NCBI GenBank assembly: GCA_040954595.2 | Contig: CM082591.2 | Coordinates: 5,363,009-5,427,008 of the forward strand | Direction of reading: 5' to 3' | Origin: Balanoglossus misakiensis | Taxonomy: Eukaryota > Animalia > Hemichordata | DNA length: 64,000 nucleotides | Shown: positions 3,766-47,300 of the stretch, piece after piece | How the letters are laid out: every line of letters starts with the position of its first letter | Numbering within the stretch: the stretch's first letter is position 1 | Translations under genes and position numbers: made by a program | Notes under the pieces: generated by a model | Told to the model about the DNA's origin: nothing | The model's database searches: none | Seen by the model: only the letters and a program-made list of their open reading frames with translations

Positions 3766-6493
3766 ATGATTTGGAGCAATCTTGGGACATTATTTGCCTT
3801 ACTGTGTGTGTTACCAGAAAATGGTAATTAATAATTTCTTATTCCTTTCTTTTGTTCTGCGTAAAATCAATACCCAAAGGTACTTTGAATTCACAATTCT
3901 TTTCGTTATTATATTTGTATGTTTGTATAGCTTTTGCAGCGTGTCCATATGGCTATATTGAATGGAATGGAAATTGCTACAAAGTAGTCGAAAGCAACTA
4001 CAACTATGAGGATGCATACAGAAGTTGTACTACAAATGTACAGGGTGGTCATTTGGCCTCTATTCACTCCTTTGAGGAAAATAAATTCATACTATCACTT
4101 ATGAAAACATCTGATGTGTGGATTGGCTTAAATGACAGGACAAAGGTAGGAGTCTCTGAATATTATACCAAAATAGTAAAAGTCACCCATTTCCCTTCCT
4201 TTCGATCGGTCGAGTGTGTGACATAGGTGAAAATCATTGTTTCTGTTTGATAAGTAACAACTTGGCTTATTGCGGTAACTTTCGAAAACAAATTCAATTT
4301 TCTTGCCTGCAATCATTAGTTTATGACATACTACGGATGCTAAGCAAGGTCCATAGGAAAACTTAGGAATGAAGTCTGAAAAATTAATGTTCCCCTTTGA
4401 AAATCGTGTGTCAGTCAGGCCTCACTAATGTTACACATATAACTTTGTAAGTGTGAGAACTTAAGCACGCCATGCGGGCGAGTTCATAGCTTGAAAATGT
4501 AGTTACCCACATGGCGTAGATTATTTTACATTTGACTTGTTTTTCGACGATCTTGTAATTGACACGTCAATACATGCGGCCACAACTTGGGATTCAATCA
4601 CTATTTTTGTGAAATGCCAATAAATTTAAAACGTCTGCGTTGTCATCCACCCATTCATCCTTACAGTACAATATGTGCTTTTTGAGTGCTTAAAATGCAA
4701 GATTTGAAAAAAAGCTTCTTTCAAATTTCTCTGCTAGTCAGTGCATTGTTGGTGAGATTTTGACTTAAATGAAAATAATATCCTTAAGGTAGTACGTGCC
4801 TCGGAGAGAGATTTCATAAAAATGATACACTTAGTCCTACAAAACCTTTTTTTCTTTGCTTTAGTATAGTGCGTGGGAAGTCTTTCTGAAATCAACGAAG
4901 AAAATTTGGTTTTCACCGTCTTGTTTTCATAAATATTACTTCTTTCAATTTTCTCCACAGAGTATAGCACACATATCGGTGGCCATTTTTTTTTAAATTT
5001 TAAGTTACTTTGCCTTCATTCAAAATTTTGGTCAGCGACTCCCATTTTTATTCTCAGTCTTATGAGAGAAGGCTGTCTTGAGCAAAATGTCAGAAATACT
5101 TTAATACTTTAAGTCACACTACTTTAAATAGAGACTCCCGGTGTGTGACGCTGGCCATATGCATACACTGGGTGATATACTAGGATAATTGTGCCAATGA
5201 TGGTTTATCATGAACTGCACTAAATATTTACAGTTAGGTTCCCATTCCACACGCACTATGGTTTAGCTAGGTCATCTTATTTTGAGTAGCCAGGATAGTC
5301 AGAACGTAAGCGCTCGAGTAGGCTTATTTCATTAAATTCTTTCATTATCCAGTGTTCGTGTCGATATATTTGGATGTCAGCACGATTCCGTATAGGTACC
5401 CCTCAGTATTAGTCATCCGAGTTAGCCCTACCGACAGAGTTTAATTCCTCTTTACAATATATTCACGACACAACCGCGTGACATTTTGCCATTATTACTC
5501 TCAGGAAGGAGAATTTAAGTGGACTGATGGCACACCTGTAGGTTTTCAATTCTGGGATGCTGGAGAACCAAACGATAGATTTAGTAGTGAAGATTGTGTT
5601 GAACTGTATCTTAACTATGGTAAGATTGCAATTTCCAAAGGTTCCATGTGACGTCTACGATTTCTGCCTTGATTGTACATTGCATGGCAGTCGACAATCA
5701 CAATAAATCTTATCACCCTACTTTTAGACAATCGACAGACAGAGCATTATGGGAGTATGCATAGGCTACATGAGATTGTTTTATAGGTTGATAGCACAGA
5801 CGTAGCATCTCGTGGTTGTGTTTTCGTGTCCAATGTTGCAACTGGTATAGTTTTGAACGTCTTTGTATATAAAACAGAATCTATAAACGAAAATTATCTA
5901 ATAGCCATATCCAATTTCGAATTTCAAGATATTGAGAAATGTGTAAACTTTTATGTGTTGGTAAAATTTAGTGGTTAAATCATGCTGACCTCAGCAATTA
6001 TTTAAACATAACGGTGACAGTGTACGACTCTCCTGCATAATCGCTGCCATTGCTGCATTAGATATTTTGAATCAGATCGACAGTCAGGTGAAATGCGTAA
6101 ACAATCAATCGAACGGTTCTCTAATAGTCTTAAATACTAATTTTGATATTTGGTGGGAAAACTATAAAAATCAACTTGCTAGTCGCAGGCAACTTCATAC
6201 GTTTGCCAGGAGATTCCACATGCGCAGATAGTAGAAATCAATTTTAATCAACAAACACATGTGTATTCGGTAAATAGATACCAAAACAATTCTCCGCGAC
6301 CAAATATACCCGTAGGTGACATTTTCGCTGCAATCCAACCTGTTATTATTATAATTAGTCCGATTATTATAATGTTATAGCTTTTTATTTAATAGTTTTT
6401 ATTATTATATATGATGTTGCAGATGGCAAGTGGAACGATGGATCATGTGACTACGCGCAGCATTACGTGTGTAAAGCTCCTCTGACTGCGTAA
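3766..6493 (+). CDS. Secreted single-domain C-type lectin (EPN/WND type), 4 coding exons
   Basis: Exons 3766-3823 (signal peptide [19 protein letters not shown]), 3931-4145 ([14 protein letters not shown]...GGHLASIHS...[10 protein letters not shown]), 5505-5619 ([10 protein letters not shown]...WDAGEPND...EDCVEL) and 6423-6493 ([17 protein letters not shown]...stop). All introns are GT-AG with compatible phases (1,0,1). Canonical CTLD cysteines and WIGL, EPN and WND motifs are present. Confidence 0.93.
4784..5127. mobile_element. Non-autonomous DNA element flanked by TTAA (Kolobok-like ends) in lectin intron 2
   Basis: Begins TTAAGGTAGTACGTG and ends CACACTACTTTAA (imperfect terminal inverted repeat). 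A related partial copy lies at about 28733-28920 (shared TTCTCCAyAGA...GGCCATTTT...CAAAATTTTG...GAGAGAA...CTACTTTAA). The superfamily is inferred only from the TTAA duplication and purine-rich termini. Confidence 0.6.
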
Positions 6494-7189: not shown

Positions 7190-7599
7190 ATACACGCCAC
7201 CAGTGGCTTGGTTAGTAATCTCTGGCTCACCCTATATGGCTATTAAACTACCTGTCACTTCGACTCTTTTCACTGGAACTGGGTTTATGTTTATAAACTT
7301 TTACAGGAAGTACGCCCCCCCCCCAAAAAAAAAAAAAAAAAAAAAAAACAACAACTGGGGGCATAAATTCCTAGGCGAACTGGATTCAACACGACGATTT
7401 GCTAGGTCGTTGTGGTTGACACAGCTCGAGACGGTTAGTATCTCCATCTTCCGCTGTGAAGAAAGTGTTCACTGCATAACATGCAAAGTGTATGTTAATG
7501 ATTAATGTCACTCCTCCAGACATGACCTCTGAACCAGGAAGTTCGGAGATGTTGGAACTGGTCAGTCCTGCCAACAGTGGCAGCGCGAGCGGAGAAATC

Positions 7600-10500
7600 A
7601 TGACACACTTCCACAAGGCTTTTTTCACAGCTGTTGTAACTGTGCTACAAGTCGTCATTGCGATTTCAGGTAAGAAAGTCAAGATTCGTCAGTTTTAAAT
7701 GCTGTAATAGATGGCTTGGGAGAGCTCTGCTTTATGCCGGCGAACGTTTAATCCCGGAAACTTTGTCTGTTTGGAGTTATCGTTCCCAGCGATTACGTAA
7801 TCAACGAAGGACTACCGTGAGACCAAACAAACTTTTGTTAATTACCAGTGTGAACGGTCGTTTCCCTTTTTTCCTACTTTGATTCGAGCCCATGTCCCAT
7901 GCTGTGAGATAGTTGAACTTCAACGGATAGGGAATGCATGTAGTACATACGTGTAACGAAGGCCGATGGTGAATAATAGGATACCATCGGCGTGCCCTCT
8001 TCCTGCTGCACGGGAAAAAAGGAAGTTGTGTAACCTAATCTGATGGAATACGTTTGATGTAGGTGTATGGATGTGTCCGTTCTCTTCATCAAGGCCACAA
8101 CACGATTCAAGAAAAAAAAGATATAGCCATCTTAACGTCTAATTTCCATCACATTGTAACAAAGCCATTAAGGCATGACTGAACACGGGGGAAATTATTC
8201 AAAATAATTTTGAACTATTATACTATTCAAAATATAGTTCTCCGTGCAGTAGAAGTGCATATATTCTCCCGTCTCTGTGTCAGTTCTGAAAGTTAAGAAT
8301 ATTGCTACATCTATTTTTTGATAAATTCATGTGTCAAAATTGTCACAAAATCGCGTTGTAACTATAATTCGTTCCATATGATGTGTCTCTTTGCAGAATC
8401 TGAGCACGTGCGGCTAGTCCACGGAAAAACGCCGTATGAAGGTCAAGTTGAGATGTATATTGAAGAAAAAGGGGGATGGCTGCCTGTGCTATATTTCCGT
8501 ACGTCTTATGGTGAACCAAATTGGGGTTTCCAGGCTGCCAACATTCTTTGCAAAGAGTTGGGTATGTTGAATCGAAATGCAAATATTTTGATAAAGGGAA
8601 GTGCGAAATTTAAGTCTGCACTTTTAAGGGATTAAAACTTAACTACAAACGCACTGAAAAATGGTTTTGCAGCTAAAATATGCCTATCGCCTGGGAAACG
8701 CAACCGTACTTCTGACAGACACAATGCAATGATGTTGACATTGATATTACTTGACCTGGGACAACACAACTTAGACCTAAACTGATAAGTGCTCTTGAAT
8801 ACCCACGCAGCCAGAAATATATTTACCCATACGCTTGTTTATACGTCTGTAGCAATTACAGGAAGACTGTTGATGTCAGATAATCACATGTACGGAAGAA
8901 TGACTTGTCCGTCATACTTGATCTTTCACACGAAATTTAACCCATGTTAAAGTAGAAGTTGGTTTAATTTTGGTTCTGTTTTGTATATAGCATTTGGTGT
9001 TTGATGACCATATAATACAATGGACTCGCTGAGGAGGTCACTTTCGTGACCTCTATATGACCTTGCATCCTTGTACTTCTGTAGGTATGGCGTTGTCAAA
9101 ATTCAACATTTTGGCACAAGAAACGTGTAAAATATTGCTTGAAAAAGGGTTACTTTCGCAATTCTGTACACAATGTATTGACTGCAGTTTCAATTGTTTT
9201 TGTAGAAGTTTAAGTCCACCTGATAGATTCTTACCAACGGAAGTACGAGGATGTAAGGTCACGTAGGGGTCATGAAAATGCCTATAATGTCTCCTTTAAC
9301 TTACACACAGTTCCTTCTTGTCTTGTCTTCATTGAAGGATACCTCGGTGCCATGTACCACGGACGGGAAGGGGGAGCACTCGACGGCGACCAGAGACTTC
9401 GCATCTCAAATATTCAATGTGATGAAGATGATGTATCGCTCTTGAGTTGTGACTTCGATTTTTACTCTGGTGCTTACAAGACCGCGGCGACAGCTAGGTG
9501 TAACTGTGAGTATTACTCAGCCGAGTTTTAAATCTATGATGTGGACAAGTAATACAACTATTCAGATATTCACATAGAAAAAATGAAAGTGTAGGCGTAG
9601 CACACTGCGCAAAATTACAATGAGACATCCTTCCTTGAGTATCAATACTCTAGAAAATTGTCTTGATAATTTCTGAAGTTTGCAAAATCATCAGTCTCGA
9701 TATCTGTTTACTCCGATAGATAGGCCATAGATTCGTGAAATAAAACATTCGTCGTTTTCATTTCACATTAAATGGACAAAGTCTCTCTCTCGCTGCCCTT
9801 TTTTCCACTAATTATATTTGATACAAGGCACCGTTTGTTATTCTACATGTGGATATATAGTGAATGAACGTTCACCCACACACAACTTCCATCCCTCTTA
9901 TAGACAGGAGAGTGAAAAAACTCGCCAAAATGAATAATCGTTCTTTACCATTTATTCATTTTGGGCGAGTTTTTACTCTCGTATCATACAAGTGGGAAGG
10001 AAGTTTTGTGTGGTTGATCATTGATTCACTATATATCCACATTTACATTAACATAAACGGTGTCTTGTATCAAACATAATTAATGGAAAAGGGGCAGCTG
10101 GAGAGAGACTTTGTCCCTTTAATTATATATTAGCCACAATGTATTTCAAACAGACGATGCCTATCTGGGCTGCTATAGTGGTGAGTTAACAGAAACGCTA
10201 CCGTACAACAGAGATACGACAATTCAGATGTGTCTTGAGACGTGTCGTAGCAAATATCTGACTTATGCTGGCTTGCGGCGCGGTGGGTACTGTTTCTGTG
10301 GCAACGAGTCAGACTACAGATCCCTTAGCAGAGAACCTGACGATCAGTGTGGATCTCCATGTGCCGGCGACAGCAGTCATAATTGTGGAGGCAGAGACGA
10401 ACTGGCAATTTATTCGGGTGTGAGAAATCATTGAAATCTAACTTGTCCTAACAATCAAATCTTCACGTCAATGTTGTTAAAAGTTAACAAGAGTAATATT

Positions 10501-13500
10501 TACGCGACAGAATATTTTATCCTTAAATCCAAGTATTGTAGCTAAACTTTTACCGCTTGTGTTTTTCCCTTTGCAGCATCAATGGGTGGGTGTGGTGGAC
10601 GGTTGAACGGATCTGGGATTATTTACTCGCAAGGATTTCCGGGAAACTATCCAGAAGATCAAGTTTGCGAGTGGCGTGTCTCTGCACAGCGAGGAAGTGC
10701 TATTGAATTTCAAGTCGTCTTCTATGAAGTTGCTGGGCTTGGTGATAATTTGACGATAAGCGAAATTCATGGAGGAGAAACGCGAGATTTAGGTGTGGGG
10801 AATGCGTCGTGCACGAATGAAGTGTTAGTCACATTCAAGTCAGGAGCCGCCAGCTCCCGTCATTCGAGGGGAATGTTCGGTCTGAAATATGGAGGTACGT
10901 GTAGATGTTCACTCCGATTAAATTCCGACAGGAGATTAGGATATTCAGACCGGTGCCGATGTCGTCATGGCCGATGTAAGTGGTTCTATCTGTGGTAAAC
11001 CAAGTTTGTACCTATATAATCAGTGAAAACGGCTCAAAGGATGAACAAGATGGCCTATTCCGGGTTTGAGATGAATATTATATAAACATCAGATGACATC
11101 AGATAATATTATAAGTATCAACATGTGAAGGAGAAAGATATCAAAACATAATTGTATGGTGCAATAATTTTAATACTCTGTGACGCGACCTGGGTCGGAT
11201 GTGTTGAAGGTCATGTAATTTGAGATGCATGAAAGTTTCTTCTCGACATTTAGACGCATAAGCCTCTACAGCTATTTGTTTCCACTTTACTTGACCTTTA
11301 CGCAGCCTGTCATAAAACAGCGAAGCGTTTTGTTTCACTCTGTTTTGGAGAGGTAACATGTATCAAATGTTTTGTTTCAATACATTCTTAAACTCCAATT
11401 CTCCAATTACAGAAATACGGGCATGTCAGTCACCCCACAATCTCCTCGATGGAAACTTCCATCACAACGGATCGTGTCCATATCTACCCGGTGACACTAT
11501 TTCCATTATCTGCAAGACAGGTTTCAATCTCAGCACTACCCATGATGCCATACAGTGTCAACCAGATGGTACATGGGATAATGCACTCCCACAATGCACA
11601 GGTATGGTCCAGTACCCATGGTGATGTTTTGATGTATACTTCAGCAATTTAAGATTGCTACACATATTTATTTCTGCAAACAAATACATTGGACCGACGT
11701 CGACGTTCTTTGATGTCAAAAACCTATACATTATTACCGCCATTGGAATTATTTCGGGATAATTGCGCTTGGATAAAAATTTGCAAAAATTCACTGCAGA
11801 GTATAAAGTTACACTGGCTGTCAACACAAATACTACTGTATTTCCGTTGACTGAGTCAGTGACCCTATTTTAATCATTTCCCTTGTAAGTTTGATTACTT
11901 GACGATAAAGGATATTTTTGGCAAGCGGACATCGTGTAATTGTCCTCAAGTGGTACAAAAACGAGTCATGATGATACATTTAGAAAATATGTAATTTGAC
12001 TGGCAGATGTAACTCGCGTTGAGCAGTGACTTTTGGAACAAAATAAGGTGATGCAGTTCCACTAGCATAAAATTGTGCCTAAGCTATCTCTCTCCCCCTC
12101 TCTTCCCTCTCTATCTCTCAGTTATCAACTGTACAGATCCAGGTGAAGTCCAAAATGCAGACAGAGTCGGGGACGAATACAGCTACAATAGCACAGTTCA
12201 ATACATATGCGATGATGGTTACTACATCATTGGCGATGACGTCATTCAGTGTACCATCGAAGGGGAATGGACTGAGAAACCAACCTGCATTAAAAATGGT
12301 AAACATAATTATTTATGTAAAATTCACAATGTTCCACAGGAGTATTTTATCGTCAAGAAGCCCAACCCCTCCTAACAATAAACGTTAACTATAGTTTACA
12401 TTACAACACTATTATATGCACGGAAAGCCCTCAAACTCCTTCTTTAGTAACTTACTTTAAAAATAATCGATTTTCAGTTCTGCTAATGTAAACCAAGATG
12501 AACTTCTTTTGTGTAGCTCGACAATGGAAATGTTCCGTATAAAAATTGTATTTCTCGCACAGAAAGGGAAGTTATATATGCACATTAGTCGGGGAGAGGA
12601 AATGACTCGGGTCAGCTGTGTATCGGATAGCAGCCTATAGTTCATTCAACTTTCATTCATTCATTCATTCATTCAGTCAGTCATTCATTCATTCTTCCAT
12701 TCATTCATTCATTCTGTCAGTCAGTCAGTCAGTCATATGTATTTATTTTCTTTCTTTCGTAGCTACTCATCTGTCAGTGAGAAATGCGTCAACAGGAGCA
12801 GGTAGGAAGCAACATTATATTGTGAATCAGAGAGAGACTTTGGTTCAAAAGACCACTTCTCATGTTTACTCATCTTATAAAATTGATTATGTCTACGGTC
12901 TGTTAGACATACAAATTATGACTCCACGTATTTTGCGTTGTTATTCGAGACACAAAATACTGGCAGAAATAGGAAGACATCATATAGATATGGGTCCAAT
13001 CAGTTTTGTAAATATTGTTTTCCTAACCGAATTCTGTCAGCCTGCCTTGTTAAATGTATGCAAAATTTATTGGTGTAACTCATATTTTACAACGGTCTTG
13101 CTTACATTACAGCTGCGGGGATAATCATTGCCGTGGTTGCAGTGGGCCTAGTTGCCATCGGTCTGGCCATAATTGCTTACATTTGTAGACGGTATGTGCA
13201 GCAGAAAATGCAACGGCCATGTTCCATTTTACGGAATCATTTTTTTCCTGGCTGCTGTGTTTTTATCTAGTGTTGAAAACATATGCTGCGTTCTTGTGGT
13301 TAATGATTATTTACGCGAGTTTATGTGAACGCATCGGGCTCATATTTGCCGCGGAAGCCAAAATATTAGATAATGCGAACCACGTCATCTAAACTAGCAT
13401 TTGTTTAGTCTTTCTGCTTGCTCTACCATCGTATTATGTCATTGATATTTTAAATATTCTTGCTTCACGTCTTTTTCTGTTCGACATTCATGTTTCAGGA

Positions 13501-14359: not shown

Positions 14360-14895
14360 GGCGGCTGTACAAGGTAGCCAAGGTTCTTACCAAAAATCGA
14401 GGTTCTTAAGTTTACAGCCTTAAAAGTAAAAAATACTCGAGGATCTGGCTCACAAAGTCTTATTTGTAGTCTATGCGATGATAATTGTTCATAATTAATT
14501 AACAATAATCGTTATTTATCGATCCGATATCATCAAGGTTCTTAAATAGGAATTTATACACGTGGCCGTGGTTCTTACCGAAAATCGAGGTTCGTAAATA
14601 GGAATTTATACATGTGGCCGTGGTTCTTAACGAAAATCGTGGTTCTAATTACGTTTTACAGCATCACGTATCAAAATTAGTCGAGGTTCTAGCTTACATA
14701 ATCTTATTTGTAGTCTATGCGATGACGATTGTTCATTATTAATTAACAATCACCGTAATTTATCGATCCGATATCATCAAGGTTCTTAAATAGGAATTTA
14801 TACACGTGGCCGAAATTCTTACCGAAAATCGACGTTCTTATGTACGTTTTACAGCCTAAAAAGTTAATAATAACCGGTCTAGCCCTTTACAGCGC
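14360..14895. repeat. Internally tandem-duplicated element (about 245-bp unit with about 50-bp sub-repeats) between receptors A and B
   Basis: TCTTATTTGTAGTCTATGCGATGA...GATCCGATATCATCAAGGTTCTTAAATAGGAATTTATACACGTGGCCG occurs at about 14458 and about 14702. The ends GGCTGTACAAGGTAGCC and GGTCTAGCCCTTTACAGC are loosely inverted. Confidence 0.75.
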
Positions 14896-15283: not shown

Positions 15284-18200
15284 ATGGGACTATATAAAGA
15301 AAATCTCCTTTGCTCAGTCTTGACACTCTCAACTCTTCTCGTAATTGGCACAAATGCAGGTGAGTGGCTTCACTTTCTTTTACAGTATGCATATAGGAAG
15401 TGCGTCTACTGCCTGGGCGTGTATGTGTACCACAGTGACTGTGGTGTTTTGTATACATGTACATTTCAAGGCCAATCACTGCGCTGGACATTGGGCGTGA
15501 CACGACCATTCTCTGCGAAAGGGGTAAATTGCATTCGTTTCATTGTGGAAACATTTCTGCCTCTCGAATTCAAGCATATCATCATATGAGTATGACGACA
15601 TATTAGTGCCATTCAAAGTATGGACCTAAAAGGCAATGTGTGTCATATGATACTTCCGCGTGTGACGTCACAAACAGTCAGGGCTACCCACGTAATATAG
15701 TATATAGAAATACCGGAAGACGGTTTTATTTTCGCGTTTATGGAAGTTGACGGCTCCTAACATCAGTTCAGATTTTTATAACAAATTAAAATGTCTATAG
15801 ACTTTGGTTTGGTGAATTTTCGAGAGTGAACTTGTACATTGCAAACTTCAAAATCTGGGCGTAAATTACGCCATTGTCAGGCTGCGGTCGGTTGACGTTC
15901 GTTGTGCTGCAATCAGGGGAGGACCATTTAATTTCTTTGGGTAGAAGATTTATGTACGTCAGCAATTTTTCAGCCATTGTTACAACAATTTTTTATTCGA
16001 TTGGCAGTCCGCCTTTTTCTTCAAGGCACTGCAGAAGAATTTTTCCTCAACATCATCTGTCAACAATTTCCTAATCCATCCACCCCCTGAAATCAAATGG
16101 TTCTCCCCTTAGTAACGGAAACGCACTTTTTGCACTCGCGGAGCATACGGTAAAGCGTCAGGTAATATAGTCCGCAAATCCAATGGTGTTTTGCCGATGT
16201 CTAAAACTTTTTAACAACATGTTGTCAACAGATGCTTGTACTGTTTTGGACTTTGTTGTATTGTGCAAAATCAGAAGAAAAAAATTTATATAAATCCAAA
16301 CACACCATGCTATAATTGTTTCTCTTGGTAGGAAATCTTACAGAATCCGAGTCCGTTCAACTAGTACACGGGGAAACACCACATGAAGGTCGTGTTGAGA
16401 TGTATATAGAAGACGAAGGAGGGTGGTTACCCATTTTGTATTATCGTCCGTCGATAACCGGTGGTGTGCCTAGTTGGAATTTCATGGCTGCGGATATCGC
16501 TTGCAGGGAAATAGGTATGTTGTACTTGCCTTCAGTGTACCTACTAACTTCTCCTGATACAAATACGGCCTACTACTACATATAGGATAAACAGTGAAAA
16601 ATTGACACCTCCCCGAGAGTGTGACCTATCCAAACAAATGAGTTAGCTATTGTAGTTCTTTTTATTGATGATGAACTGCAAACTGTGTTTGTTTTATGGA
16701 AAAGTAAACTTAACATGTAAGCTGACATCCAGGCAAGGTAACGCAGTCTTTTACACCTAATATGCATGTGACCAAATCACTTGGTTCATCTCCGAATGTT
16801 CATAACACTCTCTCTCTCTGTCTCTAAATACATTGCTTATTTATAGAGAAACAAACACAGGTCGTCGACGAATATGCATGCGCAATTGGCACATTTTAAT
16901 CAGTTCAGTTTAGAAAAGGTACTTTACCCTGTGTCTGACGTTCTTGTATGATTGTAAAGAGTTGAATTTTTTTATTTTTTCTTCCTTCTTCAAATCACAG
17001 GATATCCAGGTGCCTTGTCTCACGGGAAAGAGGACGGTGCACTTTCGGGAGACTCGAGACGTCGAGTCACTTCTGTTCGGTGCAGCGAAGAAGATGCCTC
17101 ACTCTTAGACTGCGACTACGAATTGTCGTCTTTAGATTTTGAAGCTGCGGCCACGGTGAAATGCAACTGTGAGTGAACTACTGAAAGTACAACAACCTAC
17201 ACTCAACGTTGGTGGATTGTATATTAAAGGGGAAATCCGGTCCAGCTGATTTCTACATAATTTGGTAGCATTGAGGTCACTCTTTCAGACAAAAACATAT
17301 TCGCCATGTATAAGTCGATTTTTTACAAAATCGAGGGAAAGTTGGCAGAAATTCCAATATGGCGTTTACTGTAATTTGAATCATGGGAAAAAAATTGCAA
17401 GGACTAACTTCTGCCCACCTTGGTGTGGGTGATACCATTTTCCGATGCAGGACATTGACACTACCTCTCTCTCCCTCTCCCTCCGTCTCTCTCTGTTATA
17501 GTCATCGATTGTGGTGATCCTGGTGAAGTCGCAAATGCAGACAGAGTAGGGACTGAATACAGTTACAACAGCAATGTCACGTATGTATGCCACGATGGAT
17601 ACTACATCATCGGCAATGATGTCGTTCACTGTACTATTGAGGGAAATTGGACACAGAAACCATCTTGTCATGGTAAGCTACTTTAGTGTGTCAAAAAGGG
17701 ATAGTGAATAATATGAATGTTTGTTTATTGTGTACTTAATACAATATATTGTCTTGGGTTATGTTGGACTGTTTTGTAAATGATGTACTGCAATATTTAC
17801 AACATAGTGGGTTGATTTCAAAGACATGAAAAACATTGAAAAGCACAGGAAAAATATAGAAATGAGACCGGAAGTGTTGAAATATGTATAATAATCCAAT
17901 GTCTTTTGTTTCTTTGCATCCAAGAATATCCAATGAGTACCATCACACCTAAAACTGGATCCCACGTCAAAATTGGTATTATATTATATTATATTATATT
18001 ATATTATATTATATTATATTATATTATATTATATTATATTATATTATATTATATTATATTATATTATATTATATTATATTATATTATATTATATTATAGC
18101 TTTATACAAAGTTCACAAGTGTACAACAATATTATTTTTTTTCCTAGGTACAATTGTCGGAATTGTAAGTGCTGTTGTCGCTGTAGTTGTTGTCATGGTG

Positions 18201-19063
18201 ATTGTGGTTTTGTGTGTGCTAAAAAGGTTAGTTATGTTATGTTATACAATAATATATTACATGTATATGGTATGTTATGTTATATCTTATGTTATATGAT
18301 ATGTTATATGATATGTTATATATGATATGGTGATGTTATTCGTAATGTTGTGTTTTGTATATGTTATACGATATGATATATTTAAAGTAATGTTTTTTTA
18401 TGATATATGGTATGTAGTTATATCGTATACATGTATTATATGTTACGATGTAATTATGTTATGTGTACTTTATATCATGTTGTGGTATGTTATGTTATGA
18501 TATGGTACATTATGTTACTTGTACTGTTGGTCTTTACATCGTGCCAATATAAAACAATGACAACAACACTTTCCTGTGATTTCAGAAAGCCTGGTTGGAA
18601 GCGAGCAGGACAAGACCATAAGCGAAGTGGAAATTTTTCTGCACTGAGAGAACTTGAGGGAGATGAAACTATGGCGTACGAAGAAATACCTGATGATGTA
18701 GAGAAGAGCAGTGCAGGTGTGGCTCGCCATGGTGACAATGGAAAAAACATTTCTCAGTACGAAAAGATTGACCCGGGAACACGCTTTGAACATCAGTACA
18801 CTGGTCTTCAAGGCGACGGCAAGAATCGACGCGATTTTGCTGCGGCAAATGATGAAGAATATCAGCCGATTGATCCGTCGCTTGTTAGCGACAGCACGTA
18901 TTGCGGTCTTCAACAAGACAAAGATAATTCCGGCGATCAAGGCACGGAGCAGGAAGAGCCTGCAGCAGGGAAAGCGTACGAGTCTTTGAGGCGAAGTTTA
19001 CAGAGTGACCAAACATACACTGGTTTGAACAAGGACATCCCACATGTTGGACAAGACAGCTGA
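15284..19063 (+). CDS. Receptor B: type-I membrane protein, SP-SRCR(divergent)-CCP-TM-tail with three ITAM-like motifs; paralog of receptor A, 7 exons
   Basis: Exons: 15284-15359 (signal peptide); 16344 (or 16332)-16514 and 17001-17168 (SRCR: VQLVHGETPHEGRVEMY...IACREIGY...VRCSEEDASLLDC...VKCN); 17502-17672 (CCP IDCGDPGEVANADRVG..., closely similar to receptor A CCP2); 17925-17975 (stalk); 18148-18226 (TM TIVGIVSAVVAVVVVMVIVVLCVL-KR); 18586-19063 (tail). Splice phases are consistent. Confidence 0.9.
17979..18097. repeat. (ATATT)n microsatellite; degenerate (TATGT)n tract follows at about 18228-18515
   Basis: Direct reading. Both tracts sit in receptor B introns flanking the TM exon and generate spurious YYIIL ORFs. 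Confidence 0.95.
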
Positions 19064-43100: not shown

Positions 43101-44323
43101 TCTGTAAACAAGTCACGCCCGGAAAATTTAGCAGACTGCAAATTTAAAGTCGTGTATTGTACAGTCAATATTCGCCTAGCATGTATGGTTTTTTTTCCAC
43201 GGTCTATCTTTGGATAGTTAAAATCGTCCATTCTCGACCCTCAAATTTTAGCTAAGAGCGAGAACATGCTCACTTGATAACTTTTGCTAATTTTCTGGCG
43301 ACCAGATGGCGATAGTGATCCGTCATTGCAACTATTGCCCCCGGTGATAATATAAAACACACGGAGGTGTTCAATTCATCTGTGCCACTTGATATATACT
43401 TGCTCATGTGTACGAATAATAATTAATATGTGCTCATATTTCTTGCCAAATATTCACATTGCGTGATCGGGTTTCTCGATACACGTCGATCTTTAATAGG
43501 CGCTGGAAAAGATAGGGTTGAAATTGTGGCTTAAACGTAATACACCTTACGCAGCAGGGAGTCAAGATGAATTTCTATCATTCGATGTGTCCATCAGTTA
43601 ATTTAAGTGGACCAACTTTCGCTGATTTCGATTTAATATTAACAGTGGTTTTCACTGATAAAACATACAATCATTAGAATCGTTTGGCGAAAACGAAAGA
43701 TATCCTGACGCACACAGAAATTCTCGTGTCGTGACGTCATGCTCGTCGTCGGGTACAGCTATCAACAAAGTAGAAGGTCCGCGTTCCTACCAAACCGTCA
43801 TGAACGACACTAAGTAAACGAAACTTAAAAAAAAAATTAAAGGATTTCGATTACGAATTTCATATTCCAATTGTATTGACATTGACAGCATTGATGTGTA
43901 TTATAAAACTTGTAACCCAAGCCAGTGTTCTGTTTTCTACCAATTCCAAATCATCACTTGGAATATGAAGTTGGTGAAAGTGGTTTCTCACGCGTTTCAG
44001 CGCGCGGAACCCGCGCGGATATGAACCAAAATGACGCGGAATAAAAAAAGACGCACACTCACCTGGTTGGGATAGCCGCCTCTGTTAAAATACTTAAAGG
44101 TGCCCGGTCCCACGCTGCTCGCCTCGCCATTCAGCAGTTGACACACGCTGGAACGTCTGTCGATGGCAAACCCGTCGCAGTCTGTCAACTCGTTGCAACG
44201 GCTTGAACACTCCACCACGCTGAAGACATAGACCTGCTCCAACATCAGCGGCAGGACACGGTCAAACTGCGCGCACAGCAGCAGGTCCGCTAAAATCGCA
44301 AAAATGCCGAAATAAGGAGTCAT
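34184..44323 (-). CDS. Secreted multidomain lectin: SP-PAN/apple-EGF-WSC-C-type lectin, 6 exons
   Basis: Exons (minus strand): 44323-44063 (MTPYFGIFAILADLLLCAQ signal plus SVVECSSRCNELTDCDGFAI...CQLL PAN-like, phase 0); 36230-36086 (EGF-like PCNENGLC...CKCYPGFLGADC, phase-0 start); 35744-35430 (WSC YIACYVD...MTPTVCTEHC...FAAVQAGNECRC...PCAGD...CG); 35204-35047, 34690-34525 and 34263-34184 (CTLD with WFGL, EPS, WND). The five 3' exons are firm. Joining the PAN exon across a 7.8-kb intron rests on phase compatibility and the need for a signal peptide. Confidence 0.8.
36398..36516. mobile_element. Complete about 120-bp TTAA-flanked MITE (Kolobok-like AGG...yyT ends)
   Basis: TTAAAGGTATACGATCACCTCC...GGAGGTGACCTTATAACTTTAA, with inverted termini. 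Relatives at 6774 and 39283. Confidence 0.75.
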
Positions 44324-47300
44324 CGTGGACGCGAATTCTCTGTTACCTGTGTCGCTGAACGGTACGCCAATCAGTATTCCCCCTGCCGCCTGGCAACATA
44401 ACATGTCAAACTAATCTACTCTGTATAGACCCGCAGTCCTCCACAAAAGCACCGGCCTATCAGCTCTGTCACGTGACCGGCTGATCAAAGAAAGGTAATT
44501 CGGAGTAAAACGAACGCTTGCCTCCACCTGACCTCGTGTGCCAGTGTGCACGCACAAACAAACAATTTTCTCCCTGTTCATCACAACTTTCATCGGTTTT
44601 TCAGTTCGTATCATTAGCACATTCGCGATCATTTTACGCTCCGTTCATTTTTCAATGGGCTGTAAAGTTCTGCCCGGCTCACACGATTCTAATGGACACG
44701 TTCTCAACAAAGGAAAATAGCTATAGCATTTTGTCTGAGCCAATAGTGTACATGGTTGTCGTTATTTGAAGACTTCCGCTTGAAACCCCAACTTGCAGCA
44801 GTAGTCGAAAGAAAATCACCTTGTGAGGAGTGTGTTAGTGTTTGTAATCATTATTCTAGACGATATTAAACAAAATAACATTTCAAAAGCGCCATTTTTG
44901 TCGAAAAAGCAACAAATGCACAGGACAGACAATAATTTTATCCTTTATTCAAATTTTCGGTTTTACTGGGAGAAACGTCGTCAAAACAACGTAAATGGCC
45001 CCTCATAATCCCGGATACGAAACCCCCTACAAATTTCAAGTTTTGACTCTCTGACATGCAGGATATGAAGTTGCCGTAAACACTCGACATTTTTTATTTC
45101 ATGCACTCCAACTTTATATTGTCTGTTTTTAATCCCCAAACAAGGGATAGTCTATAGTGAAAATACTCGCCATATGTCTAAGATTAATCACTGGCAACTG
45201 AAAAAGTCAGAATGTTGGAATTCTGACATTTTACCGAAAAGAATAATAGTTGTGATAAATTGGACAGTGTTAAAAGGCTTTAGTGTTTAAAAGAAGAATA
45301 CTACGTTTTCAGCGGAGACATCTGCTTGTTGTTCATTTGTACGATTGTTTCGACCACAGATGTTGAAGTAAACGACCGACGCATAAATATAGAAGTGAAA
45401 TATTTCTTTGCCATAAAGTTATTTTACGTACACGCACGTGAAATAATGTGCGCACATTTTTGGATTTATACTCTTGTAATCGCAACTTTGTCCTAGTTTA
45501 GGCGTTTATTCCACCTTAAATTGGTTCCTTGCTCCGAGAAAACAATAAACTTTCTGCCCATATAAGTGTCCAGTCTGCAGTATATGCAGAACATTATTTT
45601 GAATGTAGTTTGCCTTTTGAGGTAATATGCATTTTGAATCTCCCTATTTATTAAGCTGCGTTTGAATACAATCCAAGGAAAACTAGGTGACCCAGAGTTT
45701 GGTGGCATATTGGGCTCGGCAGCGCGGTTCTCTGTAGAAAATAATAATCGGTTGCACTCAGGGGGGAAATTAAAAATGTCAATTCAAATTATGTTCAGGA
45801 GATCGCTGGTGCGTGCTGCGAATAAACGCCGAAGTCAAGGTGCGTAAATTGAAATATCACCGCGGCGCGTAACGAAGGACGAATTCTCATCAGGTGATTT
45901 AGCGCAACCGATTCAGATTCATCGGGTCTACATTCGGACGAAAATGGAAAATGCCAGTTTTGATTTTTCGGGGGATTGGCCCCCTTCAAGTTGTTATGTT
46001 GTGCGACGTCGTGTGGCAAACGACACCAGAAGTCATGCAAACAGCCGCGGGTTCCATGAGACCTACTCGACGAGTGTTTACCACTGAATGCTTGCTACAA
46101 ATGCAGCAAAACCGAGCTTGTTTTTATCGCCAAAACACTTCAAGATTGCTTCGTTACCACAGAAGAGCGTTATAAGCACGATAACAATTTTGCGTCACTT
46201 GACGTATCATCATCCTGTGTTTTTGAGTGTTCATATAGACGAATCAACAGGTTCAACCCAGATCAGTAGATTATTAATACACTGTACACCCACAATTGCA
46301 CGTTTATATCTAACACAGGCGCGTGTGTAGCCTTTTGATGTCAATGTTTCCAAATGACAATACTCCCAAACTAAACGTTTTTACTCGATTCTGGAAAAGG
46401 GTTTTTGACCTTGAATTCAGAACCCTCCAGAACCCTCCACGGGAAGGGTTGGCAGCTTACCAGTTAATGCTCATGCCCACAGCACGCCTGAAATAGTACG
46501 AGGAGGTCGTCATCGACAATTGCAGAAATTCGAAGTACCGTTCTATCTAAGTCACACACGCTTCGCCTATTCCCACAAACGCTAAATACATCTTTTACCC
46601 AATGAATCACACTGGCTTTGAATTATGAACTGCACAGTTTTTGCGAGAAATAGAATTCCCCAAACAGCAGTGGAGTTAGTCTGTGCGTTAATCTTCCACG
46701 CGACCGTGCGCGCGCCTCGAGTTTGATCAGTTGAACTACGGGTAATCGACTCCTCGCGGCTATAATTTATTTTTCGTTGCACAACATATAGACACGAAAG
46801 ATTCTGATACATCACAGTAAAATATTTGCAGGTTGATAACCAGTTAAGTGTTATTGAAATGACCCAAGCTTAAAAAGTGCATTTTTGTTCAGGTGACGTA
46901 AGAGTATAATGGGGGCATTTTCGGAGCAACAGTAACCATAGCAATGCCAAATTATTGAGTGATAATCTCCTCTCTATACATTAATATGAGTGCTTTTAAA
47001 ATTGTCGGCTAACGCTCATAGTGTTTAATGCTACTTGCTTGTAGACAGGTCTGTAAAGGTGGTACCGATTTAATGAATAAATCCATTTCTATGGGCCTGA
47101 AGTGGCTCTTCGGGAAAGAGTCGGTTTGCAAAGCTCTAGGACGAATCCAGGGATTGAGAAATCAGATGGGTGTTCCAACTGCACCAACCAACGGATATTA
47201 ATGTTTGGGGTGATACAAGCATATTTGCACGAGCACTGCGAAATAGTGCAGTAGATCAATTAAGCAAGATTTAAGCAAGTCTCGCTATGAACAGAAAATC

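What the first reader, a model, noticed from the sequence alone, without database searches (positions are those of the whole stretch)
18677..19027. Three tandem ITAM-like motifs in the tail of an invertebrate SRCR receptor
Seen in sequence: the receptor B tail contains YEKI-DPGTRFEHQ-YTGL, YQPI-DPSLVSDST-YCGL and YESL-RRSLQSDQT-YTGL. These are three YxxI/L-x9-YxxL units starting at 18758, 18860 and 18977, preceded by a lone YEEI at 18677. The identical 9-residue spacer and repeated YxGL point to internal triplication with selection on the tyrosines. Established: ITAMs (YxxL/I-x6-8, sometimes longer, -YxxL/I) recruit tandem-SH2 Syk/ZAP70-type kinases, and three in one chain is the CD3-zeta arrangement. 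The TM has no charged residue. Inference: a self-contained activating or phagocytic receptor that needs no DAP12/FcR-gamma-type adaptor. The 9-residue spacer is slightly longer than the classical one.
Basis: partly seen in the sequence, partly recalled or inferred. Interest (0 to 1): 0.82.

Follow-up and report, generated by a model that had tools for sequence, protein, structure and literature searches.

The report
Acorn-worm receptor with swappable triple-ITAM tail
A cell-surface receptor gene, likely from an acorn worm, ends in three copies of a paired-tyrosine motif that is conserved in a related species and likely switches on a Syk-type kinase, and database gene models suggest that this tail is one of two interchangeable signalling tails in the same receptor family.

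Summary
The three YxxI/L-x9-YxxL units and the lone YEEI are at the stated places. They lie in the last exon of a clean 7-exon model (signal peptide, SRCR, Sushi/CCP, uncharged TM, 158-residue tail); 0 of 300,000 shuffles give three units. Two Ptychodera flava (acorn worm) gene models keep all 7 tyrosines, the 9-residue spacing and much of the spacer, while the rest of the tail drifts.

New here: the tail is a module. The neighbouring receptor A has a different tail (NxxY and acidic YxxI motifs, no ITAM). In P. flava, annotated isoforms of one gene join the same ectodomain and TM to either tail, and another gene puts the ITAM tail under an A-type ectodomain. The SRCR domain has only four cysteines and a variable loop.

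Best reading: a self-contained Src-to-Syk/Shark activating receptor in a paired or splice-switched family. Binding, splicing and signal sign are untested (no genome, no RNA run listed). ITAM receptors, 9-residue spacers and tail switching are already described in Hydractinia, oyster, fly and Botryllus, so this is a new variant, not CD3-zeta kin. The scan noted similar ITAM designs on other DNA, but not this family.

The parts
15284..15359 (+). Receptor B exon 1: start codon and signal-peptide-like segment
   Evidence: Gene model; P. flava P0004 has a similar hydrophobic N-terminus
16344..16514 (+). Receptor B SRCR, first half; the usual Cys-Asp-Asp segment is replaced by a variable loop
   Evidence: 61% identical to P0004; family alignment; CD163 alignments
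17001..17168 (+). Receptor B SRCR, second half (domain has 4 Cys in all)
   Evidence: Weak Pfam SRCR hit, E 0.04; 48% to P0004; SRCR fold confirmed on the P0004 model
17502..17672 (+). Receptor B Sushi/CCP domain
   Evidence: Pfam Sushi E 2.8e-12; 75% identical to the last CCP of receptor A
17925..17975 (+). Short Ser/Thr/Pro stalk exon (predicted from splice sites only)
   Evidence: no tblastn match; frame holds without it
18148..18226 (+). Transmembrane exon, 79 nt, phase 1 to 2, uncharged, with a Cys near the cytoplasmic end
18586..19063 (+). Last exon: whole 158-residue cytoplasmic tail (ITAM-type tail)
   Evidence: matches P. flava P0001 at E 4.1e-11 and P0003 at E 6.8e-4
18677..18688 (+). 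Lone YEEI motif, a likely Src-family SH2 docking or priming site (assignment recalled)
   Evidence: Conserved as YEEI in P0004 and YDSI in P0003
18758..18808 (+). ITAM-like unit 1 (YEKI-x9-YTGL)
   Evidence: last +3 residue is Pro in P0003
18860..18910 (+). ITAM-like unit 2 (YQPI-x9-YCGL), the only unit with an acidic residue 3 before the first Tyr
18977..19027 (+). ITAM-like unit 3 (YESL-x9-YTGL)
7522..13191 (+). Paralogous receptor A, ectodomain and TM exons: SRCR-WSC-CUB-CCP-CCP-TM; its TM exon (13113-13191) is also 79 nt, phase 1 to 2
   Evidence: Model without internal stop, 729 aa; Pfam domains; P. flava counterpart P0015
13499..14180 (+). Receptor A last exon: the second (A-type) tail, 12 Tyr, no ITAM, conserved core of NxxY-type and acidic D-x-Y-x-[ED]-I motifs and a C-terminal YxVL motif
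   Evidence: homologous to the tails of P0014 (E 2e-21) and P0015 (E 1.7e-19)

Best explanation
Receptor B is a predicted single-pass surface receptor whose last exon encodes three conserved paired-tyrosine units, which likely act as ITAMs that recruit a Syk- or Shark-type kinase without any adaptor chain. Inferred steps: ligand binding by the SRCR (and CCP) domain clusters the receptor; a Src-family kinase phosphorylates the tail and may dock on the lone YEEI; each doubly phosphorylated unit binds the tandem SH2 domains of Syk or Shark; three units multiply the signal, which most likely drives phagocytosis or another innate activation. The ITAM tail is one of two exchangeable last-exon modules of the family. 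The other (A-type) tail lacks ITAMs and likely signals through PTB or single-SH2 adaptors, so ectodomains can be wired to either output: by tandem genes in this window and, according to gene models, by alternative last exons in Ptychodera flava. Shown: motifs, gene model, conservation, domain content, two tail types. Inferred: splicing, phosphorylation, kinase binding, signal sign, ligand.
For: Three units are far beyond chance. Against P0004 and P0003, 7 of 7 Tyr are identical in both; +3 is I/L in 7 of 7 and 6 of 7; spacers are 17 of 27 and 11 of 27 identical, against 21 of 103 and 20 of 103 for the rest of the tail. Spacer length is 9 in 9 of 9 units although the linkers between units vary, and all 9 have D/E three residues before the second Tyr. 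The TM is uncharged in all 6 family sequences examined. Spacers of 6-9 or 6-12 are within published ITAM definitions. Syk tandem SH2 tolerates varied spacing, unlike ZAP-70. Invertebrate ITAM-Syk/Shark signalling is shown in oyster, fly and amphioxus. Tail modularity: P0004 and P0014 are identical for 243 residues, then carry the ITAM and the A-type tail; P0003 has an A-type ectodomain with the ITAM tail.
Against: No transcript, phosphorylation or binding data. The acidic residue before the first Tyr is present in only 1 of 3 window units and in none of the P. flava units. Pfam's ITAM model and PDB sequences do not match the tail. The relatives were found by tail similarity, so some conservation is built in, and all come from one species. 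Syk or Shark could not be looked for in this genome. Amphioxus Syk suppresses NF-kB. The P. flava isoforms are automated models. The A-type tail has no conserved ITIM, so opposing function is not established.
Confidence: 0.55

Rival explanations
1. The units do bind a tandem-SH2 protein, but the output is inhibitory or non-immune: Syk acting as a suppressor, or an SHP-type phosphatase binding the tyrosine pairs.
For: Amphioxus Syk inhibits MyD88/NF-kB signalling (PMC13344425). The first Tyr of unit 1 fits the loose ITIM pattern S-x-Y-x-x-I/L in both the window and P0004. Hydractinia authors could not tell ITAM from ITIM for similar x9 pairs.
Against: Only 2 of 7 window tyrosines fit the loose ITIM pattern, both through Ser; the Ser before unit 1 is absent in P0003. 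Three repeated pairs at fixed spacing is the ITAM layout.
Confidence: 0.2
2. The tyrosines are independent single-SH2 docking or YxxL endocytic sites; the equal spacing is only a by-product of internal duplication of one segment.
For: The three spacers are homologous-looking (0 of 100,000 shuffles reach the combined score), so one duplication history can explain equal spacing. The N-terminal acidic residue of classical ITAMs is mostly missing.
Against: DNA identity between units is only 41-49%, so the duplication is old. Yet spacer length is kept in 9 of 9 units while linkers and the rest of the tail have insertions and about 20% identity. Independent sites would not need fixed spacing.
Confidence: 0.2
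3. The exon is not part of a functional receptor (wrong splice model or pseudogene).
For: No RNA evidence could be obtained (one search listed none). The intron before the tail is low-complexity and holds another in-frame AG at 18418.
Against: The model is open with GT-AG introns. P. flava models have the same architecture and switch tail right after the TM. Motif-focused conservation indicates selection.
Confidence: 0.05

Closest known systems
Hydractinia Alr receptors (PMC9546547, passages; bioRxiv 10.1101/2022.03.25.485889, passages)
   Same: Invertebrate single-pass receptors with their own ITAM-like pairs, several with 9-residue spacers; Alr1A and Alr1A-Sv2 swap an ITAM-like for an ITIM-like tail by alternative exons.
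   Different: Ig/Fn3 ectodomains and allorecognition context; the passages seen describe single or overlapping ITAMs, not three separate repeated units; the alternative tail there is ITIM-like.
Drosophila Draper-I / Draper-II and mammalian MEGF10 (PMC4503800, PMC8092387, passages)
   Same: Adaptor-free receptor; Src phosphorylation and Shark/Syk recruitment to an ITAM; alternative splicing swaps the tail; NPxY motif serves PTB adaptors.
   Different: EMI/EGF ectodomain, one ITAM, NPxY and ITAM in the same tail; Draper-II has a true ITIM, whereas the A-type tail here has none conserved.
Oyster CgIgR-CgSyk (PMC6994640, passages) and amphioxus ITAM-R/bjSYK (PMC13344425, parts 1-2 of 7 and passages)
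   Same: Invertebrate receptor with an intrinsic ITAM shown to bind or be phosphorylated by Syk.
   Different: CgIgR has five Ig domains and one ITAM with an 8-residue spacer and an acidic residue before the first Tyr; the architecture of the amphioxus ITAM-R was not given in the text seen.
CD3-zeta (CD247) (recalled)
   Same: Three ITAMs in one chain.
   Different: No detected sequence relationship. Zeta is a ligand-less adaptor with a charged TM residue and 7-8 residue spacers (recalled); here the chain has its own ectodomain, an uncharged TM and all units in one exon. The likeness is convergent.
Botryllus FcoR3/FcoR4 (PMC12582321, passages) and vertebrate paired receptors such as CD200R/CD200RL (PMC3653949, passages)
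   Same: Related ectodomains with different tails; FcoR swaps motifs by splicing; CD200R inhibits without an ITIM through DOK2/RasGAP, a possible model for the A-type tail.
   Different: Ig-type ectodomains; FcoR uses ITIM/hemITAM; activating CD200R-like members use DAP12 rather than their own ITAMs.
SRCR superfamily receptors CD5, CD6, CD163, SCARA5, DMBT1/SALSA
   Same: SRCR fold (Foldseek on the P0004 model: SCARA5 E 3.9e-8, SALSA E 3.1e-7).
   Different: Four Cys rather than six or eight; the Cys-Asp-Asp segment is replaced by a variable loop; no triple ITAM is known for these (recalled).

Membership tests
ITAM-bearing receptor | Two YxxI/L motifs 6-12 (or 6-9) residues apart | tested here: met
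   3 of 3 units, spacer 9; definitions
ITAM-bearing receptor | Classical spacer of 6-8 residues | tested here: not met
   Spacer is 9 in 9 of 9 units; 6-8 definition in PMC6771651
ITAM-bearing receptor | Acidic residue three before the first Tyr (D/ExxYxxL/I) | tested here: not met
   1 of 3 window units; 0 of 3 in P0004; 0 of 2 intact units in P0003. D/E does sit three before the second Tyr in 9 of 9 units
ITAM-bearing receptor | Motif lies in the cytoplasmic tail of a membrane protein | tested here: met
   By gene model and P. flava models; not by RNA
ITAM-bearing receptor | Tyrosines and +3 residues conserved in relatives | tested here: met
   7 of 7 Tyr in both relatives; +3 I/L in 7 of 7 and 6 of 7; one species only, hits chosen by tail similarity
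ITAM-bearing receptor | Match to the Pfam ITAM profile | tested here: not met
   0 families for the tail at E 0.05 and E 10
ITAM-bearing receptor | Src-dependent double phosphorylation and tandem-SH2 binding by Syk/ZAP-70/Shark | not testable with these tools
   Needs bench work; no genome to look for the kinases
CD3-zeta / FcR-gamma / DAP12 adaptor family | Minimal ectodomain and charged TM residue (recalled) | tested here: not met
   SRCR-CCP ectodomain, uncharged TM
SRCR superfamily | SRCR fold | tested here: met
   P0004: Pfam SRCR 38 bits against cut-off 26.1; model pLDDT mostly above 88 over residues 31-140 and Foldseek hits to SRCR structures. Window exons alone give only a weak hit (E 0.04)
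SRCR group A or B | Three or four disulphides (six or eight Cys) | tested here: not met
   4 Cys in 5 of 5 family SRCR domains, 6 in the outside relative P0009; group definition
SRCR cation-dependent scavenger receptors | Conserved acidic cation-binding site | tested here: inconclusive
   The Cys-Asp-Asp segment seen in CD163 alignments is replaced; mapping it to SALSA D1019/D1020 is my inference, and the other site residues were not mapped
Paired activating/inhibitory receptors | Related ectodomains with different tails, linked in the genome | tested here: met
   A and B are 1.1 kb apart; SRCR 57% and proximal CCP 75% identical; tails unrelated (E 0.19)
Paired activating/inhibitory receptors | Partner tail carries a conserved ITIM/ITSM or is shown to inhibit | tested here: inconclusive
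   No ITIM or ITSM in window A or P0014; one non-conserved ITIM match in P0015; ITIM-free inhibition exists (CD200R)

The most novel reading that the evidence does not exclude
Acorn worms have a family of germline-encoded recognition receptors built on a remodelled four-cysteine SRCR domain with a variable binding loop. A choice of last exon wires one ectodomain either to a CD3-zeta-like triple-ITAM amplifier or to an ITIM-free, NxxY/PTB-type (CD200R-like) damping tail, and paired genes such as A and B in this window are the split-up form of that splice switch.
Probability: 0.3. Interest if true: 0.72.

Novelty: new variant of a known kind. Interest (0 to 1): 0.52.

Why it matters
Hemichordates are a sister lineage on the way to chordates. 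They are reported among the groups with the Bcl10-linked pathway that co-occurs with Syk, but no upstream ITAM receptor of theirs turned up in my searches. This gives a concrete candidate with ready-made controls: three natural units, a naturally degenerate unit in P0003, and one ectodomain with two tails. It allows a direct test of whether ITAM multiplicity, usually tied to the T-cell receptor, arose independently in an innate receptor, and of what spacer invertebrate Syk or Shark prefers. The general principle of invertebrate ITAM receptors with switchable tails is already known, which caps the surprise.

Tried and rejected
No genome is held for the window, so Syk, Shark, Src and further paralogues could not be searched. 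No RNA run was listed; this is no evidence either way.

The word-index search with the tail found nothing (0 of 677 candidates). The exhaustive phmmer found 3 hits. One of them, P0002, is an unnamed 3,023-residue repeat protein that looks bacterial and lacks the motifs; I dropped it as chance. The profile search returned only the two input relatives. The ectodomain search returned 10 proteins: P0001, P0005, P0006 and P0009 from P. flava were analysed; the other 6, distant SRCR proteins, were used only to deepen the fold alignment and their tails were not examined.

The ESM Atlas gave only unnamed clusters, with a recognition value below the reliable range. The PDB sequence search with the tail profile found 0. 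Trees of SRCR and CCP domains had no supported branch, so orthology and gene conversion are not claimed. A second A-type or ITAM-type tail exon in the window was sought by tblastn and HMM over 2,196 six-frame segments; none was found.

The CCP domain and tail of the P0004 model had pLDDT under 50; the tail is expected to be disordered and the CCP simply lacked alignment depth, so neither was used. No complex prediction was run, since no Syk sequence was on hand and phosphotyrosine cannot be modelled. Rejected: kinship with CD3-zeta, and calling the A-type tail an ITIM tail.

Full report
Observation. All 7 tyrosines of the 158-residue tail are followed by I or L at +3. A seven-exon model (15284-15359, 16344-16514, 17001-17168, 17502-17672, 17925-17975, 18148-18226, 18586-19063) has GT-AG introns, matching phases and no internal stop; it gives a 397-residue protein with signal peptide, SRCR, Sushi/CCP, short stalk, uncharged TM and tail. 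In 200,000 shuffles of the tail, 0 had three x9 units and 1 had two; in 300,000 shuffles with any spacer from 6 to 12, 0 had three and 71 had two. In a six-frame scan of the window, these three were the only ITAM-like matches inside the exons modelled for receptors A and B; most others lay in simple repeats. Splicing could not be seen directly: no genome, no RNA run listed.

Relatives. An exhaustive phmmer with the tail gave 3 hits. Two are Ptychodera flava gene models, XP_070552426.1 (P0001, E 4.1e-11; its longer form is XP_070552413.1, P0004) and XP_070557224.1 (P0003, E 6.8e-4); the third is an unnamed repeat protein without the motifs, dropped as chance. The window is therefore likely from an acorn worm. 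P0004 has receptor B's architecture and matches its SRCR, CCP and tail exons. All 7 tyrosines are identical in both relatives. The +3 residue is I/L in 7 of 7 (P0004) and 6 of 7 (P0003, where unit 1 ends in Pro). The spacers are 17 of 27 and 11 of 27 identical, against 21 of 103 and 20 of 103 elsewhere in the tail. All nine units have a 9-residue spacer with a shared profile (Pro at spacer position 2 in 7 of 9, Leu/Thr at 4 in 9 of 9, Asp/Glu at 7 in 9 of 9), and the between-unit spacer similarity was reached by 0 of 100,000 shuffles for the three proteins together and by 112 of 100,000 for the window alone. DNA identity between window units is 41-49%. This fits an old triplication with selection on the whole 17-residue unit. 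Caveats: the hits were chosen by tail similarity, come from one species, and domain trees had no supported branch, so 'counterpart' is safer than 'orthologue'.

The tail is a module. Receptor A, ending 1.1 kb upstream, models cleanly as SRCR-WSC-CUB-CCP-CCP-TM plus a 226-residue tail (729 aa). Its SRCR is 57% and its last CCP 75% identical to B's, but its tail is unrelated to B's (E 0.19) and has 12 tyrosines, no ITAM and no ITIM. An ectodomain search with P0004 returned 10 proteins, among them P0005 and P0006; their cluster mates are P0014 (XP_070552406.1, labelled isoform X1) and P0015. P0014 and P0004 (labelled isoform X2) are identical for 243 residues and diverge right after the TM: P0004 has the triple-ITAM tail, P0014 a tail homologous to receptor A's (E 2e-21). 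P0015 is the counterpart of receptor A with an A-type tail, and P0003 puts the ITAM tail under an A-type ectodomain. So all four combinations of ectodomain type and tail type occur among the models. The A-type tails share a core with NxxY-type motifs, an acidic D-x-Y-x-[ED]-I motif and a C-terminal YxVL motif. In the window there is one exon of each tail type, and the A-type exon lies upstream of B, so B cannot use it. The TM exons of A and B are both 79 nt, phase 1 to 2, and A's TM exon would join B's tail exon in frame; no AATAAA or ATTAAA lies between A's stop and B's start, a weak hint only. The P. flava isoforms are automated models whose transcript support I could not see; a merged annotation remains possible.

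Ectodomain. The SRCR fold is confirmed on P0004 (Pfam above cut-off; confident model over about residues 31-140 and Foldseek hits to SCARA5, SALSA and M2BP). It has four cysteines in 5 of 5 family members, against six in the outside relative P0009. The Cys-Asp-Asp segment seen in CD163 repeats is replaced by a loop that differs in sequence and length between members. Acidic cation sites mediate most SRCR ligand binding (PMC7043408, passages); that this segment is part of that site is my inference. The ligand is unknown and may not be a standard calcium-dependent scavenger ligand.

Mechanism. Best reading (0.55): clustering, Src-family phosphorylation, tandem-SH2 recruitment of Syk or Shark to up to three units, and an activating or engulfment output, with the A-type tail as the alternative wiring. 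The spacer fits published ITAM definitions (6-9 in PMC9546547; 6-12 in PMC6994640), though not the classical 6-8, and Syk's tandem SH2 is tolerant of spacing while ZAP-70's is not (PMC6771651, passages). Against: the acidic residue before the first tyrosine is present in 1 of 3 units here and in none in P. flava; Pfam and PDB sequence searches do not recognise the tail; the kinases could not be sought in this genome. Syk is listed for sea urchin and amphioxus (PMC13344425, parts 1-2 of 7) and is said to co-occur with Bcl10, which hemichordates have (PMC5978004, passages and one supplement; the figures naming species were not visible). Rivals: tandem-SH2 binding with inhibitory or non-immune output (0.2; amphioxus Syk suppresses NF-kB), independent single-tyrosine sites spaced by duplication alone (0.2), or a wrong model (0.05).

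Comparison and novelty. Intrinsic ITAM receptors are described in oyster, fly, amphioxus and Hydractinia. Hydractinia pairs with 9-residue spacers, and an ITAM-like to ITIM-like tail swap by alternative exons, are described in bioRxiv 10.1101/2022.03.25.485889 (passages; its supplements were not seen). Draper-I/II and Botryllus FcoR3/4 also switch tails by splicing. CD200R shows that an inhibitory partner need not have an ITIM. The likeness to CD3-zeta (details recalled) is in copy number only. Ten literature searches, judged mostly from listings, showed no paper on this family, on an SRCR receptor with three ITAMs or on a hemichordate ITAM receptor; an invertebrate SRCR survey had 0 occurrences of 'ITAM' or 'hemichordate' in its main text (PMC10855680). 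The library lacks most subscription journals. Earlier notes of this scan show nothing near this place or similar in sequence but describe comparable ITAM designs in mussel, snail and elsewhere in this genome; these are unchecked and were used as leads only.

Verdict. Observation confirmed; interpretation partly supported; new variant of a known kind; interest 0.52. The most novel reading not excluded, a last-exon switch between a triple-ITAM amplifier and an ITIM-free damping tail on a remodelled SRCR sensor, has probability about 0.3 and would merit about 0.72.

Noticed in passing
window:13499-14180: The A-type tail has a conserved core (two NxxY-type motifs around an acidic D-x-Y-x-[ED]-I motif) and a conserved C-terminal P-x-Y-x-V-L-x-G-P end in 3 of 3 sequences; its binding partners and sign are unknown.
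   Followed up: partly
window:16344-16514 and 8397-8561: The family's SRCR domain has four cysteines and a length-variable loop in place of the usual Cys-Asp-Asp segment, a candidate specificity loop.
   Followed up: partly
P0001 and P0005 (P. flava models): Both tail isoforms also exist as N-terminally shorter models that start inside the SRCR domain without a signal peptide; possibly annotation artefacts.
   Followed up: no
window:18148-18226 and 13113-13191: All 6 family sequences examined have a Cys at the cytoplasmic end of the TM just before the basic stop-transfer residues, a possible palmitoylation site (inference).
   Followed up: no
window:14181-15283: No AATAAA or ATTAAA between receptor A's stop and receptor B's start, and a duplicated element of about 225 bp at 14374-14596 and 14614-14840, 84% identical.
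   Followed up: no
window:3760-6490: A small C-type lectin gene just upstream of receptor A (Pfam Lectin_C on exon 3933-4145; other exons read by eye), apparently secreted.
   Followed up: no
window:34349-35772 (minus strand): Exons with a WSC domain (Pfam E 2e-18) beside lectin-like segments that gave no Pfam hit; another possible recognition gene.
   Followed up: no
window:31601-32797: Single long ORF with a sulfotransferase domain; resembles heparan sulfate 3-O-sulfotransferases (label recalled).
   Followed up: no
window:54676-58490 (minus strand): Arrestin N- and C-domain exons, an alpha-arrestin-like gene or genes; a PAN-domain exon lies at 43997-44410 (minus strand).
   Followed up: no
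window:27650-28831: A 393-codon Lys/Arg/Ser-rich open frame with no Pfam hit; looks like the middle exon of an SPT2-type chromatin protein (recalled, untested).
   Followed up: no
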